64,000 bases of DNA, from the NCBI GenBank assembly GCA_965113315.1, contig OZ220363.1, one strand, 5' to 3'. The position numbers were made by a program. Each line of letters begins with the position of its first letter. Positions within the stretch are counted from its first letter, which is position 1. Positions 47,540 to 53,500 of this stretch are shown here, piece after piece. This DNA comes from Podarcis vaucheri (Eukaryota).

Positions 47540-50500
47540 TTTCGTAGATTTTCACGGGTATAGGAATGCAGGTTTTGGTGTCTTCGGGTGTCTTCCCGTG
47601 TAAGAGTTGGGGTGTCTGTGCGACGTTTCGACGAGGTCTCACTCGTCATCCTCAGGCTGGTGTTTTCGGCTTCTTGTTACTGGAACAGAGCAGAGTCTGG
47701 TGTTTGAGTTCCTATAAATACTATAAATATATATATATCCCCTCAATTTTGAAATCTCTTTGACCAGGGTATCATAGTAGGGCTAAGCGATTATTTAGAT
47801 GCACTCCAAATTTTGGTGAAGGGAAATGGGGATTAATCCCTACATTGCAGCATATAATTTTGTGCTGGCACTTTAATGTGCATTAAATACATTTCACACA
47901 TGCTATGCTTATTTACTTCTGATAGTCCTTTGAAGCGCACTGGAAAGAACAAGAAATTATTAGCAGGTTGCAGTACAGTAATGGTGAAATGGGAGGTTTC
48001 CTGCAAGTACATTTAATGCCCTACAGATTCTTATTTTATCAACTTGCTTGCAAAGTACACAATCTGAAATTATTCTCCGCCACACCATTTCTTTCAAATC
48101 TCTTTCACACCTGTCTGCTCTTTTGTTTGAGCTTGAAAATGTCCCTGATCATATCATGCTATCTCTGATTTCGCTGTTGTAATTGTAATAGTATGTTTTA
48201 TTTGTAAAAGAAATGTAGCAGGACTGGTGCGGTACCCATAGCCCTTCACGTTTTGTTGGACTCTAAACACTGATCCGGCCCTGCCAGCATGACCAGTGGT
48301 AATGATGGAATGATAGAATCATGGAGCTGGAAAGGATCCCATGGATCATCTGATCCAACTCCCTGCAATGAAGGAAAATGCACCCTTAGGGGATCTGCTG
48401 TAACCAACTGAGCTAACTAATGCATGATGGGAGTGGTAGTCCAACAACATTAAGAGGGCACCAGGTTCCCCATTCCTGCTATGTATAAACACACACACTG
48501 AATGCAAAATATTTCCAGGGTGGGTGCACTATTTAGACCAGGCATCCCCAAACTCGGCCATCCAGCTGTTTTGGGACTACAATTCCCATCATCCCTGACC
48601 ACTGGTCCTGTTAGCTAGGGATGATGGGAGTTGTAGTCCCAAAAGAGCTGGAGGGCTGAGTTTGGGGATGCCTGATTTAGACAGTGATATATATTTCTTC
48701 ATTTTCTTCATAATATGATAAGCCTTGCTGTGTTTGAGGGCTCTCCTGCTCATTCTGCTGCAAGGTTCCTTTCCTAACAGCATCACTGAATGTAAAAGTT
48801 ATTGCTTACTTCGCAATTGCTGAAATGGTGAATCATAATATAACCCCAGCCATTTATTTGGGCTTTGGATAAGGTTCACAGGCTGCAATTGTGAAAATAC
48901 ATACTTGAACACCACCTGTGAAATCTAAAGTGATTTGGCCAGCAATGCTCTACCTACTTGCCTGGGAGTAAGTCCCACTAGATTCAGTTGGCCTTACCTC
49001 TGATTAGACAAATATACGATTGCGCTGTCAGGTAACCAGGTTAGTAAAGAAAAAGAAGAACCAAACTTGCTAGTTATGTGGATGTGACCCAGTAGCCTGT
49101 TCTTCAAAATAAAAGCTGAACCCTAAAAAATAAAATAAAATGGTGCCTTGTGCCAGAACGTATCTGCAAAATCTGTTCCTAATCCTAGCACTGAGTCCAA
49201 GAACATCTGAAGAAAAATGCTTCTAGGCATGCATATGTAAAATGCATCTTATTTTGCTTGCTGCTAAGCAATTGCAGTTTATTTCCTACCTGTATACTAG
49301 GGTAGCACTGGCATGGGATTGGTAGGGGGGAAAGCAATGAGGGATTACAGATAATATGTTGCTTTTGATTCCATAAAAAGGTAAAGGTAAAGGTACCCCT
49401 GACAGTTAAGTCCAGCCGCAGACAACTCTGGGATTGTGGCGCTCATCTCACTTTACAGGCTGAGGGCGCAGCCGTTTGACCGCACAGTTTTTCCAGGTCA
49501 TGTGGCCAGCATGACTAAGCTGCTTCTGGCACAAAGGAACACCGAAACCAGAGCAGCACACAGAATTGCCGTTTACCTTCCTGCCAGAGTGGTATCTATT
49601 TATCTACTTGCACTTTGACATGCTTTCGAACTGCTAGGTTGGCAGGAGCTGGAGCAACGGGAGCTCACTCCGTCACAGGGATTCGAACCGCTGGCCTTCT
49701 GATCCCAAGGGGCTCAGTGGTTTAGACCAGTGTTTCCCAACCGGTGTTCCGCGGCACACTAGTGTGCCGTGAGACGTTGCCTCGTGTGCCGCGAGATGTT
49801 GCCTGGAGGGAGGCGGGCGAGTCGGGCGGCGAGAGGCGGGGCTGCGGCGGCGAGGAGAGGCCGCGCCTCCTGCTGCTGCCTGGCGCTCCTCCTCGCAGCC
49901 GGCAGCGCTGCCTGGGCGCCTCCGTGCGACTCTGCCTCGCTGGGTTTGGTCTCCCAGCAGAGACGGGTCACACGCGCACCTCCCTCCCTCCCTCAGCCTG
50001 TGCGGAGGGAGAGCCAGAGAGAGGCATCGCTCCTGCGCGGCGGGAGAGGGAGCAGCCGGAGTGATGCCCCAAACGAACGCATGGGACCGGAGGGGAAATC
50101 CTCTCCGAGGAGGATTGAGCGCAGCCGAGAGAAGCCTTTCGAGGAGCTGCCGTGTCCCCTGGAAACCCCCTTCCCAGCTCTGCCTGCCTGCCTGCCGTGG
50201 GGCTCGTATCGCCCTTTAAAGGGCGCGGGAAACTAGAAATGTGGGGACTTGGGGTTTTCCTCAGGCTGAATTCCGAGCCTTTTCACAATCTGGTGGCGGG
50301 AGAGAGGGGAATCAGCTGCGAGGGAGGAAATAAAAGGAGCTGCTTGCCTTTCCTATGGCCAGGCTACACAGCTGCTGTTTGCAGCCCCGTCTGAACGCTG
50401 CCTCGCCAACCCCGTTGATGGTTTCTTAGGCACCCCCCTCCCTCCAAACCTGCTTCGCCCTGGGACGTGCCTATAACTATAACTCGTGGTTCTGATGTCC

Positions 50501-53500
50501 CAACGCTCCCACGGGGCACATTTCATTCAGGCGGAGGAGGGGGTCGTTGGCTAACGGCCAACAGGCAGAAAGGACTGTCCAACAATGCGATTATCCACAC
50601 ATACACATCTGATCCATGGATTAACATCAAAATCCTTGCATTAAAGCTCACTCCTAAGGAACCAGTAGGTCATTAGGCTTTCAGATGCACTTTGAACAAA
50701 GAGATGTTCAAAGGGAAAGCTGCTTTTAATAACGCTGCTTTTGCAGGTACTATTGGTCTGGGTCTCATCCAGCATCTTTTCAGTACACCCAGTTAGGATT
50801 CAGCAGTCCAGTTGTACACTCTTGGGTATTCAGCATTAGCTTAAGGCGTGCAATAATCACATGCCCACTTTTGCAGCATCTTCATAGCATCCCAAGTCAC
50901 TCTTGAAATGCTCTCTTTATCATACTCTCCAAGTGTTTACTTGTGTAACACACCCAACCATATCTTGCAGAGAAGCACTTCAGAGAGGGCCAAAACCCCC
51001 CACACTTGGTGCCATTTTCATCTACACATGCAGCAGAGTAAGTTGACCCAGAATAGTACCAATTCAGATGGCAGATGGGAGAATGACAGTGCTGAATGCT
51101 TTCCCATGTAGAACAGTCCCTGCAAATAAAAACCTAGCATATTTGGAAGAGGGATGCTAGCCTAACCATTACCTTCTATGCTGTTACTATTTTTTTTTTT
51201 TTTACATAAGTAAAAAGTGACCTTTCCCCATCTGGCATGGTGGTGTGCCTCGAGATTTTTTTCATGAAACAAGTGTGCCTTTGCCCTAAAAAGGTTGGGA
51301 AACACTGGTTTAGACCACAGCGCCACCCGTGTCCCTTTTGATTCCATACCTCTGGGGGAAAAGCCAACAAGAAGTTCTGCACAAGTTGCTTGACATGAAT
51401 GAGTCTACACAAAATGACTTATCACCGATTTGCTCTCATTGCATTCATTGAGACCCTTCTTGGTGTTTTTATGGTATTAAAAATAGCATGGTAGTGGAGG
51501 AGGAGGAGGAGGAATGAAGGGGAACTCCATGACTGTTTTTCCCATCAGAGCAAGGGGTAACTGAGGGACTTTCCTTGGTCCAGCTAATGAATGAGGCAAT
51601 GATTAGCTTTTCAAGTTTGTTTCTGATGCATTAGCATAGAGCGATTAACAGGATAAAGAGAATCATCAAGCAGAGTTTGGATACTTCCTTCTCTTTAACT
51701 TCACGCTATTAGTTTGAATGGCAACACTTCTTGGCAGGGTTGTTTGCACTTCTAATTAAAAGCTAAAGGTTGCATTTCAGCTGATAAAGATCTTCTGTTA
51801 AAGCTCAGGGTGTTTTACAAGTTGAACCTATGCAAGTCAGAAGTAAGTACTACTGATTTCAAGGGAGCTTGTTCCCAGGAATCCATGCATAGGTTCCTAA
51901 GGAATTGGACATTGTGCTGTGTCCTGCTGTTCTTGGGATTTGGGGGGAGGGAAGCCTCATTGCAATCCTTGTGCAGGATTTCACTACTGTAGTAGGAGCA
52001 GCTCACTGAATGTGGTCTTTTATGTCTATATTAGATTTGTCCAGGTTAACAGTATAGCCTGGCCCAAAATTTCTGGGTACAGTGGTACCTCGCAAGACGA
52101 ATGCCTCGCAAGACAAAAAACTCGCTAGACAAAGGGGTTTTTTGTTTTTTGAGCTGCTTTGCAAGATGATTTTCCCTATGGGCTTGCTTTGCAAGACGGA
52201 AACGTCTTGCAAGTTTGTTTCCTTTTTCTTAACACCGTTAATACAGTTGCGACTTGACTTCGAGGAGCAACTCATAGAACGCAGTGTGGTAGCCTTTTAT
52301 GAGGTTTTTAAAGACTTTGGTGATGTTTGAAGCTTTTCCAAAACTGTATTTCCTTTTTGAGAAATATATTATTTATTTATTTTAATTCTTAAATTTATTA
52401 GACAGCTGTGAAACTTGTTGTGAAAGTATATTCCTAGTTAATTGTAACATATAGTTCCAGCTATTTTCTACTGCATCCTGATATTCTGAAAACGGGGAAA
52501 ATGATATAACAACATTTCATTCAGTTATTGTTGTTACCTTTGTTTAAAATGGATAGTTTTCTATTTGTTATCAATGTGGAATTTGGGCTTAGAAGAGAGG
52601 AAGAATGGGGTATTAATTATTGAAAGGAAGTTCAATATGTATTTAAGACCTCAAAATTCCTATCACAGTATTTAGGGAGCTGGTCACAGCAAATAATACA
52701 GAGCACTTGCATGACTCATAGCAAATTATATAATTTACTTTAAAACTTCGCCAGTTGTGTCACAGTCTGATTGAAGCCAGACCCCTTAAGATCTGATTCC
52801 AGTTACTTCCTGGCCTGATTTCTTCTTAAGTGTTAAATGTTTAAATTCTTCCAGTGTTTTGATTAATGTTTTCCATGTTAAGAACATAATGCTTCTGTAT
52901 GGTAATTGTTTTTTCTTCTTCTTCCAGTACTCTGGTGATGAAGACAATGACCAATTGACCATTGGTTAAAAAACATACACATACTACTTTATTAAAATTA
53001 GCCTGGGATAGATTTTCTGTTATATATGATCATGTGGGCATGGACTTCAGTGAGGCAAAGTCATTTTCACCAGTTGTGGATATAACTCATTGTACCAGGT
53101 CACATGCCAGTTTTAATTATTTTAAGGAATATACTACCAATTGAGAAATAAGTCCAGCTGTTATTGGACCAAATCCAAATTCAGCTGAGCAATGCTCAAT
53201 GCAGGGAACATCATATAGCCTTTAGCTCCTCCTGCTAAACTGTACATATTTTTCAGTCTCCACCACTGTGTCATGGTGTCCAATTGATTCCCCATCTTGT
53301 TATCTCAGAGGGCTATTTCCAGGATAGCTCTCCCCAATTCCTTAATATTTCAGGCCATTATCTTCACCTTTCCTTTGTATATTCTCACCTTCACATAATT
53401 CCGTGCAGAAAATAGCTATATATGGCAAAGGAAAAAGGAGGCTAGGGATATAGGGTGAATTATGGAATGTAAGGCTATGGTATTATTATATTTATTAAAT

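What the first reader, a model, noticed from the sequence alone, without database searches (positions are those of the whole stretch)
49728..51307. Candidate Pack-hAT: a DNA transposon carrying CpG-island / first-exon-like host cargo
Seen: perfect TIRs and an 8-bp TSD enclose 1.58 kb with no transposase. Only about 65 bp at each end carry the GTGTGCC subterminal motifs. The interior is a mosaic of a very GC/CpG-rich block (about 49795-50470) and an ordinary-composition block (about 50560-51200) ending in a T run. Known: Pack-MULE/Pack-TIR elements capture host fragments in plants and are much less documented in amniotes. Inference: a lacertid hAT family captured and moved a promoter/exon-1 fragment, dropping an ectopic CpG island into a putative enhancer landscape. 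CpGs are intact while the host SINE shows CpG decay, so the event is recent.
Basis: partly seen in the sequence, partly recalled or inferred. Interest (0 to 1): 0.72.

Follow-up and report, generated by a model that had tools for sequence, protein, structure and literature searches.

The report
Non-autonomous hAT transposon inside a SINE
A 1.58-kb transposase-less hAT DNA transposon sits inside a lizard SINE; it carries non-coding filler with a CpG-rich left half, but nothing available here shows that this filler is a captured gene promoter or first exon.

Summary
Perfect 15-bp TIRs (49728-49742 and 51293-51307) are flanked by an 8-bp duplication, GTTTAGAC. An uninterrupted paralogous SINE at 59900-59990 carries GTTTAGAC once, which serves as a stand-in empty site. 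GTGTGCC motifs lie within about 65 bp of each end. No transposase remnant was found in 38 of 39 ORFs scanned.

This is a non-autonomous, Charlie-like hAT. Its TIR matches Anolis hAT-N3_AC at 14/16 (left) and 15/16 (right), and its TSD fits NYYTARRN.

The Pack-hAT reading is untested, because no squamate genome was searchable. What could be tested gave no support:
- Four GC-block ORFs have no protein relatives.
- There is no codon periodicity, and no strong splice donor lies in the GC block.
- GC boxes are not enriched.
- Three SINE copies in the window also pass CpG-island thresholds.

The recency argument fails: the right 680 bp holds 3 CpGs, and the AT block has o/e 0.11 against 0.50 for the host SINE.

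Pack-hATs in animals are already published: 208 of 370 Pack-TIRs (PMC8277862). At most this is a new member of a known kind, so interest is low.

The parts
49720..49727 (.). Left copy of the 8-bp target-site duplication, GTTTAGAC
   Evidence: It fits the NYYTARRN TSD consensus listed for Charlie-like Anolis hAT families (PMC3014272 Table 1). It occurs once in the uninterrupted SINE paralog.
49728..49742 (+). Left terminal inverted repeat, CAGTGTTTCCCAACC (starts with YARNG = CAGTG)
   Evidence: 15/15 complementary to 51293-51307.
49743..49806 (+). Left subterminal region. It holds an 18-bp perfect palindrome, CGGCACACTAGTGTGCCG (49752-49769), and a 22-bp unit repeated 2.0 times (49762-49804), each unit starting with GTGTGCC. 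This is the likely transposase-binding region.
   Evidence: The binding role is inferred by analogy with subterminal repeats of other hAT elements (recalled).
49807..50227 (.). CpG-dense, GC-rich part of the interior (100-bp bins have GC 0.65-0.80). It is non-coding as far as tested.
   Evidence: No Pfam hit and no protein relatives.
50210..50225 (.). Perfect 16-bp palindrome, CGCCCTTTAAAGGGCG, at the point where CpG density drops
   Evidence: It is one of 8 non-microsatellite perfect palindromes of >=16 bp in the window. Its meaning is unknown.
50228..50627 (.). Transitional part of the interior (GC 0.51-0.57, 16 CpGs)
   Evidence: No protein relatives for ORF 50119-50391.
50628..51189 (.). 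CpG-depleted part of the interior with ordinary composition (2 CpGs in the 500 bp of bins 50628-51127)
   Evidence: For block 50560-51200, CpG o/e is 0.11 and CpA o/e 1.57. No Pfam hits.
51190..51203 (+). T14 run
   Evidence: It lies at the high-coordinate end of the AT block, so it is not placed like the poly(A) tail of a retrocopy of that block on either strand (inference).
51204..51292 (+). Right subterminal region, with GTGTGCC at 51243 and 51273
   Evidence: The unit GTGTGCCTCGAGAT resembles the left-end units (family D1).
51293..51307 (-). Right terminal inverted repeat (GGTTGGGAAACACTG on the + strand)
51308..51315 (.). Right copy of the 8-bp target-site duplication, GTTTAGAC
49383..49727 (-). 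Host SINE: body and 3' part. A tRNA-headed, c.355-bp SINE that the element interrupted.
   Evidence: 72-77% identity to copies at 59618-59960, 39450-39777 and 12901-13207. Naming it Squam1/Sauria SINE is recalled, not tested. PMC10058329 gives c.360 bp for Squam1.
51308..51336 (-). Host SINE: first c.25-29 bp of its 5' tRNA-like head
   Evidence: 24/24 identity to 59953-59976.

Best explanation
This is an ordinary non-autonomous hAT element of the Charlie-like group. It encodes no transposase. A transposase supplied in trans by an autonomous hAT elsewhere in the genome would recognise the 15-bp TIRs and the GTGTGCC subterminal repeats, cut the element out, and paste it into a new site.

Here that site was the tRNA-like head of an older SINE, at a target fitting NYYTARRN, and the insertion duplicated 8 bp. 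These steps are shown: the ends, the TSD, the paralogous empty site and the absence of transposase.

The c.1.4-kb interior is non-coding filler unrelated to transposase. It runs from a CpG-rich left part to a CpG-depleted right part. I infer it was acquired when the family, or this copy's ancestor, arose through abortive gap repair or template switching after excision. That is the usual origin of 'orphan' hAT-N families. Most likely this copy is one member of such a multicopy family, not a one-off carrier of an identifiable gene 5' end.
For: - Structure: perfect TIRs and TSD. An empty-site paralog has a single GTTTAGAC.
[quoted passage not shown] The TIR is 14/16 (left) and 15/16 (right) identical to hAT-N3_AC CAGTGGTTCCCAACCT, and the TSD fits NYYTARRN (Table 1).
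- Five of the 17 GTGTGCC sites in the window sit in the two c.65-bp ends.
- No transposase domain in 38 of 39 ORFs.
- No coding signal in the cargo.
- Precedent in a lizard (PMC3014272). Anolis has about 24,000 non-autonomous against about 330 autonomous hAT copies. Eight 'orphan' families share nothing with an autonomous element beyond the TIR. hobo-N families of 1.3-3.4 kb carry filler DNA.
- Base rate: Pack-TIRs with an identifiable donor number about 2 per 10,000 TIR elements (PMC8277862).
- A second, older hAT MITE with a near-identical TIR lies 4 kb away at 55301-55502, so this hAT group has a history in this genome.
Against: - Copy number is unknown. No second copy of the interior exists in the other 62 kb of the window, and no genome could be searched, so 'multicopy family' is a prior and not a result.
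- The left half does meet CpG-island thresholds (676 bp, GC 0.65, o/e 0.69). The GC/CpG gradient looks like one contiguous piece spanning the edge of a CpG island, as a captured 5' region would.
- The strong CpG contrast within one insertion (o/e 0.70 against 0.11) shows the interior has a mixed history or mixed methylation state. A plain family consensus would not obviously predict that.
Confidence: 0.62

Rival explanations
1. Pack-hAT. hAT ends picked up a host fragment comprising a CpG-island promoter, a (possibly non-coding) first exon and the start of intron 1. They then transposed it, placing an ectopic CpG island here.
For: - The interior is not transposase.
- The left 676 bp meets CpG-island thresholds (thresholds recalled).
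- GC and CpG fall gradually from left to right, like a CpG-island shore running into an intron.
- The AT block is CpG-depleted like long-resident methylated host DNA (o/e 0.11, CpA o/e 1.57).
- Precedent: frog hAT-N8_XT carries 291 bp of the CAPSL 5'UTR and has transposed three times (PMC8277862).
Against: - No donor locus is known.
- No protein relatives for 4 ORFs spanning the GC block.
- No codon periodicity and no strong donor site in the GC block.
- GC boxes are not enriched: 1 against 1.5 expected.
- Three SINE copies in this window pass the same CpG-island thresholds, so that composition is common to repeats here.
- Low base rate: about 2 per 10,000 TIR elements, and only 4 multicopy (transposed) cases among those examined.
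Confidence: 0.2
2. Internal-deletion derivative of an autonomous hAT. It would have kept only the element's own 5' promoter and UTR (the CpG-rich part) and its 3' UTR.
For: According to PMC3014272, most non-autonomous hAT families in Anolis are deleted versions of autonomous elements. A CpG-rich region next to the 5' end could be the element's own promoter (inference).
Against: - No remnant of a hAT transposase (BED finger or hAT dimerisation domain) in 38 of 39 ORFs at E<=1.
- About 1.4 kb of non-coding interior exceeds what compact Charlie-like autonomous elements leave outside their ORF. The Anolis elements are 2,246-2,968 bp long; the ORF size is recalled, not measured.
- No autonomous hAT was detected in the window: 79 further ORFs of >=85 aa gave no hAT domain.
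Confidence: 0.13
3. Composite element: a short hAT MITE that later received one or more nested insertions of other repeats. The GC-rich part would be one such insertion, for example a solo LTR with a TATA-like TTTAAA at about 50216 and AATAAA at 50329.
For: - hobo-type hAT elements in Anolis carry nested transposons as filler.
- A TTTAAA-centred palindrome at 50210-50225 and AATAAA at 50329 are about 115 bp apart.
- A 15/16 direct repeat occurs at 49976-49991 and 50430-50445 (D17).
Against: - The interior matches no other repeat in the remaining 62 kb, even at lenient settings.
- The direct repeat is low-complexity (CCCTCCCTCC), and no tail or terminal TG...CA was identified.
- No Rfam match above noise.
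Confidence: 0.05

Closest known systems
Anolis carolinensis Charlie-like non-autonomous hAT families (hAT-N3_AC; hAT-HT3_AC and its N derivatives), Novick et al. 2011, PMC3014272 (passages and Table 1 seen)
   Same: 8-bp TSD fitting NYYTARRN/NTCTAGAN. TIR starts CAGTG. The 16-nt TIR matches hAT-N3_AC at 14/16 (left) and 15/16 (right). No transposase. Length falls in the 0.1-3.4 kb range of lizard hAT-N families.
   Different: The TIR differs at position 6 (T for G). At 1,580 bp it is longer than hAT-N3_AC (600 bp). The host species is not Anolis as far as can be told, but it was not identified.
'Orphan' hAT-N families and filler-carrying hobo-N families of Anolis (PMC3014272)
   Same: Ends are shared with an autonomous group, and the interior is unrelated to transposase and of unknown origin.
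   Different: Those are defined as multicopy families. Copy number is unknown here.
Animal Pack-TIRs, e.g. Pack-hAT-N8_XT of Xenopus tropicalis, Tan et al. 2021, PMC8277862 (abstract, passages, sections 7 and 14 seen)
   Same: hAT ends enclose 100-5,000 bp of sequence that is not transposase, with an intact TSD showing transposition.
   Different: Pack-TIR status requires a unique TIR-less parental locus at >=90% identity. None is known here, and the cargo shows no recognisable gene content.
Plant Pack-MULEs / Pack-TYPE elements (bioRxiv 10.1101/2021.06.18.448592, search listing only)
   Same: The concept: a TIR element carrying captured host gene fragments.
   Different: A different superfamily (Mutator; 9-11 bp TSD, recalled). 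Their cargo is typically recognisable exons. Here no exon is recognisable.

Membership tests
hAT superfamily (non-autonomous member) | 8-bp target-site duplication | tested here: met
   GTTTAGAC on both sides, 8/8. It is single in the uninterrupted SINE paralog. Criterion as stated in PMC3014272.
hAT superfamily (non-autonomous member) | Terminal motif YARNG and short TIRs (11-16 nt for most lizard families; hAT-N1_AC is listed at 57) | tested here: met
   CAGTG... and a 15-nt perfect TIR. Criterion and TIR lengths from PMC3014272 Table 1.
hAT superfamily (non-autonomous member) | Target consensus of the Charlie-like group (NYYTARRN) | tested here: met
   G-T-T-T-A-G-A-C fits all 8 positions (against Table 1).
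hAT superfamily (non-autonomous member) | Subterminal short repeats at both ends | tested here: met
   Five GTGTGCC sites lie within 63-65 bp of the ends, out of 17 in 64 kb (5.6 expected in the whole window). A 22-bp unit is repeated twice.
hAT superfamily (non-autonomous member) | hAT transposase (BED finger, RNase-H-like core, hAT dimerisation domain); required only for autonomous members | tested here: not met
   No Pfam family reached its cut-off in 38 of 39 ORFs of >=30 aa. The element is therefore non-autonomous.
Pack-TIR / Pack-hAT (criteria of Tan et al. 2021, section 14) | Both ends cover >=10 bp of the termini of the same TIR element | tested here: met
   15-bp perfect TIRs plus shared GTGTGCC units. 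Judged by self-complementarity and the Anolis TIR table, not by a consensus library.
Pack-TIR / Pack-hAT (criteria of Tan et al. 2021, section 14) | Internal sequence of 100-5,000 bp that is not the TE's own sequence | tested here: inconclusive
   The length is met (about 1.4 kb between the subterminal regions). It is not transposase. Whether it is the family's own sequence cannot be told without a repeat library or a genome.
Pack-TIR / Pack-hAT (criteria of Tan et al. 2021, section 14) | Unique parental locus in the same genome: >=90% identity, 80-120% length, no TIR TE within 100 bp | not testable with these tools
   No squamate genome is reachable. There is no second copy in the window. A scan of bacterial and archaeal genome contigs for the TIR plus GGCACAC found 0 matches.
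Pack-MULE-style gene-fragment carrier | Cargo recognisably derived from a host gene (exon or UTR) | tested here: not met
   - For coding sequence: 4 ORFs covering the GC block have no relatives.
- No Pfam hits.
- No codon periodicity or strong donor site.
- Non-coding exon or promoter origin: not testable.
CpG island (length >=500 bp, GC >=0.55, o/e >=0.65; thresholds recalled) | Compositional thresholds | tested here: met
   49795-50470: 676 bp, GC 0.654, o/e 0.69. A merged 200-bp-window scan gives 49581-50300. Three SINE copies and 44491-44980 also pass the 200-bp scan, so the label is not specific here. Whether the region is unmethylated was not testable.

The most novel reading that the evidence does not exclude
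A recently mobile hAT vector in a squamate that picked up a germline-unmethylated CpG-island promoter fragment and has transposed it. That would be a transposition-generated Pack-hAT, the rare class in animals (4 multicopy cases in Tan et al. 2021), able to seed ectopic promoters. The strong CpG contrast within one insertion (o/e 0.70 against 0.11) would then be the inherited signature of a CpG-island edge.
Probability: 0.15. Interest if true: 0.5.

Novelty: new member of a known kind. Interest (0 to 1): 0.2.

Why it matters
As it stands, this is a clean, datable example of a hAT-N insertion nested in a SINE. It is useful as a presence/absence marker and as a sign of fairly late hAT activity in this squamate, and no more than that.

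If a gene-associated donor were found, it would add a squamate case to the small set of animal Pack-TIRs that were demonstrably moved by transposition. It would also give a natural test of whether a transposed CpG island stays unmethylated and active at a new site.

A methodological point also comes out. In this window CpG-island composition is shared by young repeats, so it should not be read as evidence of a promoter.

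Tried and rejected
- Protein homology of cargo ORFs, all negative:
  - the - frame 49676-50215 against the 5.8-billion-protein set, lengths 99-315 aa only: 1,539 candidates, none significant;
  - the + frame 49763-50233 by phmmer against 1.84 billion representatives: 0 hits;
  - the + frame 49773-50216, longer proteins only: 5,257 candidates, none;
  - the + frame 50119-50391, longer proteins only: 132 candidates, none.
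- Pfam on 38 of 39 element ORFs. Only sub-threshold noise: DUF3158 (E 0.32), Abhydrolase_4 (0.082), C2_nem (0.012), Defensin_4 (0.092).
- Rfam at E<=1. Only speF leader, E 0.59, 15.7 bits against a gathering score of 37, which is noise.
- Self-similarity of the interior to the rest of the window, by blastn with word 9, blastn with word 7 and lenient scores, and nhmmer. Nothing beyond the TIR and runs of <=39 bp.
- Scan of genome contigs (bacteria and archaea) for the TIR plus GGCACAC, in case contaminant contigs held copies: 0 matches.
- Literature search for the TIR strings. One paper (Novick 2011) holds the G-variant, and none holds the exact TIR. 'Pack-TIR' with 'lizard' gave 0 papers. 'DNA transposon' with 'gene capture' and 'lizard' gave 15 papers, none about hAT capture in lizards judging by title and abstract. 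One search was too loose to be informative.
- GC-box enrichment as a promoter sign: 1 against 1.5 expected. Rejected.
- T14 as a poly(A) remnant: rejected on position and orientation (inference).
- Palindrome 50210-50225 as a hairpin-repair scar: 2 of the window's 8 palindromes of >=16 bp lie in this 2.5% of the window. That is suggestive only, and it was not pursued.
- ARAGORN did not call the SINE heads as tRNA.
- Chance origin of the TIR and TSD: rejected.

Full report
**What is there**

Reading 49400-51700 shows CAGTGTTTCCCAACC at 49728-49742 and its exact reverse complement at 51293-51307. Each is abutted on the outside by GTTTAGAC (49720-49727 and 51308-51315). The repeat finder reports the same as one 32-nt inverted pair that includes the TSD (I1).

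With up to three mismatches the TIR has 7 matches in the window against a mean of 2.25 expected, and 0 of 100 shuffles reached 7. The only perfect matches are the two ends. A one-mismatch match lies at 55301.

**Proof of insertion**

The flanks belong to one minus-strand SINE. The left flank (49383-49727) matches three other copies at 72-77% identity (59618-59960, 39450-39777, 12901-13207) and a partial one at 21242-21371. The first 24 bases of the right flank match 59953-59976 at 100%.

In the alignment the uninterrupted copy reads ...GTGGTTTAGACCACAGCGCC..., with GTTTAGAC once. The two junctions of the finding each carry one copy of that octamer, followed or preceded by the TIR. This is a paralogous empty site. 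The element inserted into the tRNA-like head of the SINE and duplicated 8 bp.

The SINE is about 355 bp long. I take it for the squamate Squam1/Sauria SINE from memory. PMC10058329 (passages) gives about 360 bp for Squam1 but prints no sequence, so that name is untested.

**Family**

[quoted passage not shown] It lists the TSD consensus NYYTARRN for several Charlie-like families. The element meets all of this: CAGTG at the tip, and G-T-T-T-A-G-A-C as the TSD.

Its 16-nt termini match hAT-N3_AC (CAGTGGTTCCCAACCT) at 14/16 on the left and 15/16 on the right.

GTGTGCC occurs 17 times in the window against 5.6 expected, and 0 of 100 shuffles reached 17. Five of the 17 lie within 63-65 bp of the two ends. 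On the left they form an 18-bp perfect palindrome (49752-49769) and a 22-bp unit repeated twice (49762-49804). The two units differ only at two CpG/TpG positions (D6).

**No transposase**

There are 39 stop-to-stop ORFs of >=30 aa overlapping the element. I scanned 38 against Pfam at E<=1: 20 and 18. I left out 49638-49772(+), which is mostly SINE. None reached a curated cut-off. The four weak hits (E 0.012-0.32) are unrelated families.

A further 79 of the window's 86 ORFs of >=85 aa also lack any hAT domain. The other 7 lie in the element and were covered. The element is non-autonomous, and no autonomous partner lies in the window.

**The interior**

Composition falls from left to right. GC is 0.66-0.80 in the first 300 bp, about 0.55 in the middle and 0.32-0.47 on the right. 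CpG counts are 47 in 49728-50227, 16 in 50228-50627 and 3 in 50628-51307.

By block:

| Region | GC | CpG o/e | Other |
|---|---|---|---|
| 49807-50470 | 0.655 | 0.70 | |
| 50560-51200 | 0.42 | 0.11 | CpA o/e 1.57 |
| Window | 0.42 | 0.26 | |
| Host SINE | | 0.50 | |

The left part meets CpG-island thresholds (recalled). However, SINE copies at 12851-13350 (o/e 0.89), 39441-39800 (0.76) and 59621-59820 (0.66), and a repeat-like region at 44491-44980, pass the same scan. In this window CpG-island composition therefore marks repeats in general, not promoters.

**Tests of 'promoter or first exon'**

- Coding sequence. ORFs covering all three + frames and one - frame of the GC block have no relatives. 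The searches differ in reach. One search read all 1.84 billion representatives. One search saw only proteins of 99-315 aa. Searches saw only longer proteins, and the tool itself calls a blank there weak evidence.
- Periodicity and splice sites. There is no codon-position GC periodicity. The only donor-like sites with >=7/9 matches are at 51038(+), 51221(-), 51172(-) and 50860(-), all outside the GC block.
- Minus strand. The long minus-strand frames through the GC-richest part contain no ATG at all.
- GC boxes: 1 against 1.5 expected.
- Rfam finds nothing above noise.
- The interior matches nothing else in the window.

None of this excludes a non-coding exon or a promoter. It does mean that composition is the only evidence for one.

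**The decisive test was out of reach**

Under the published criteria (PMC8277862, section 14), a Pack-TIR needs a unique TIR-less parental locus at >=90% identity. No squamate genome, repeat library or eukaryotic DNA collection is available here. The one scan I made of bacterial and archaeal contigs for the left end found nothing. Copy number and donor therefore remain unknown.

**Age**

Perfect TSD and TIRs bound per-site divergence only loosely. The 95% limit is about 0.19 from the TSD alone and about 0.065 if the TIRs were perfect at insertion. The insertion is younger than the SINE it sits in. That SINE differs from its paralogs by 23-28%.

Within one insertion the left part keeps CpGs (o/e 0.70) while the right part is more depleted (0.11) than the host SINE (0.50) or the window as a whole (0.26). 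The contrast must come from the source of the sequence or from differential methylation, not from age.

**Most likely mechanism**

The element was mobilised in trans by a Charlie-like hAT transposase that binds the TIRs and the GTGTGCC repeats. It moved by cut-and-paste into an NYYTARRN target. The ends, TSD and empty site are shown. The transposase and its binding are inferred.

The filler was probably acquired by abortive gap repair or template switching (inferred). Tan et al. discuss gap filling and replication-fork switching (abstract).

In Anolis, non-autonomous hATs outnumber autonomous ones by roughly 24,000 to 330, and eight families are 'orphans'. Donor-identified Pack-TIRs number about 2 per 10,000 TIR elements. 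On those figures I put an ordinary hAT-N family member at about 0.62, a true Pack-hAT at about 0.20, a deletion derivative at about 0.13 and a nested composite at about 0.05.

**Novelty**

Pack-TIRs in animals are published. There are 370 in 100 genomes, 208 of them hAT, with 97 unique in primates and 38 in alligator, plus a frog hAT-N8_XT that carries a 5'UTR fragment and has transposed three times (PMC8277862). Its main text does not mention lizards, and its species list sits in a figure and supplements I could not see. A search for 'Pack-TIR' with 'lizard' returned 0 papers. At best this would be a first squamate example of a known kind.

The gap at 56249-56401 was left alone.

Noticed in passing
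window 55301-55502: An older hAT MITE of about 202 bp. Its left TIR, CAGTGGTTCCCAACCT, is 16/16 identical to the Anolis hAT-N3_AC TIR in PMC3014272 Table 1. The right TIR is decayed to 11/15, and the flanking octamers CATTGGGA / CTTTAGGA match at 6/8. It shares TIR+5 nt (20 bp, 95%) with the right end of the element under study.
   Followed up: partly
window 50210-50225: A perfect 16-bp palindrome, CGCCCTTTAAAGGGCG, inside the cargo at the point where CpG density drops. The window has 8 non-microsatellite perfect palindromes of >=16 bp, and 2 of them lie in this 1.58-kb element. It could be a junction or hairpin-repair scar, a TATA-like site, or chance.
   Followed up: partly
window 45994-47172 (-): A 393-aa open frame with a weak GIY-YIG hit (E 6.4e-4, 20.4 bits, below the 22.6 cut-off). 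It may be the endonuclease part of a Penelope-like retroelement; that name is recalled, not tested.
   Followed up: partly
window 44290-44980 (+): A GC- and CpG-rich stretch (GC 0.60, CpG o/e 0.70) holding a 213-aa open frame rich in Ser, Glu, Gly and Arg, with no Pfam family. It is probably part of another repeat next to the Penelope-like ORF.
   Followed up: no
window 12851-13350, 39441-39800, 59621-59820: SINE copies of the host family themselves pass CpG-island thresholds (o/e 0.66-0.89). The SINE hit by the hAT has o/e 0.50.
   Followed up: yes
window 47490-47539: An (AT)n microsatellite forming a 50-bp perfect palindrome.
   Followed up: no
window 11244-11829: ARAGORN calls a permuted 'tmRNA*' here. 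In a vertebrate window this is almost certainly a false positive.
   Followed up: no
window 56249-56401: A run of 153 N (assembly gap or masked stretch). It was left untouched.
   Followed up: no
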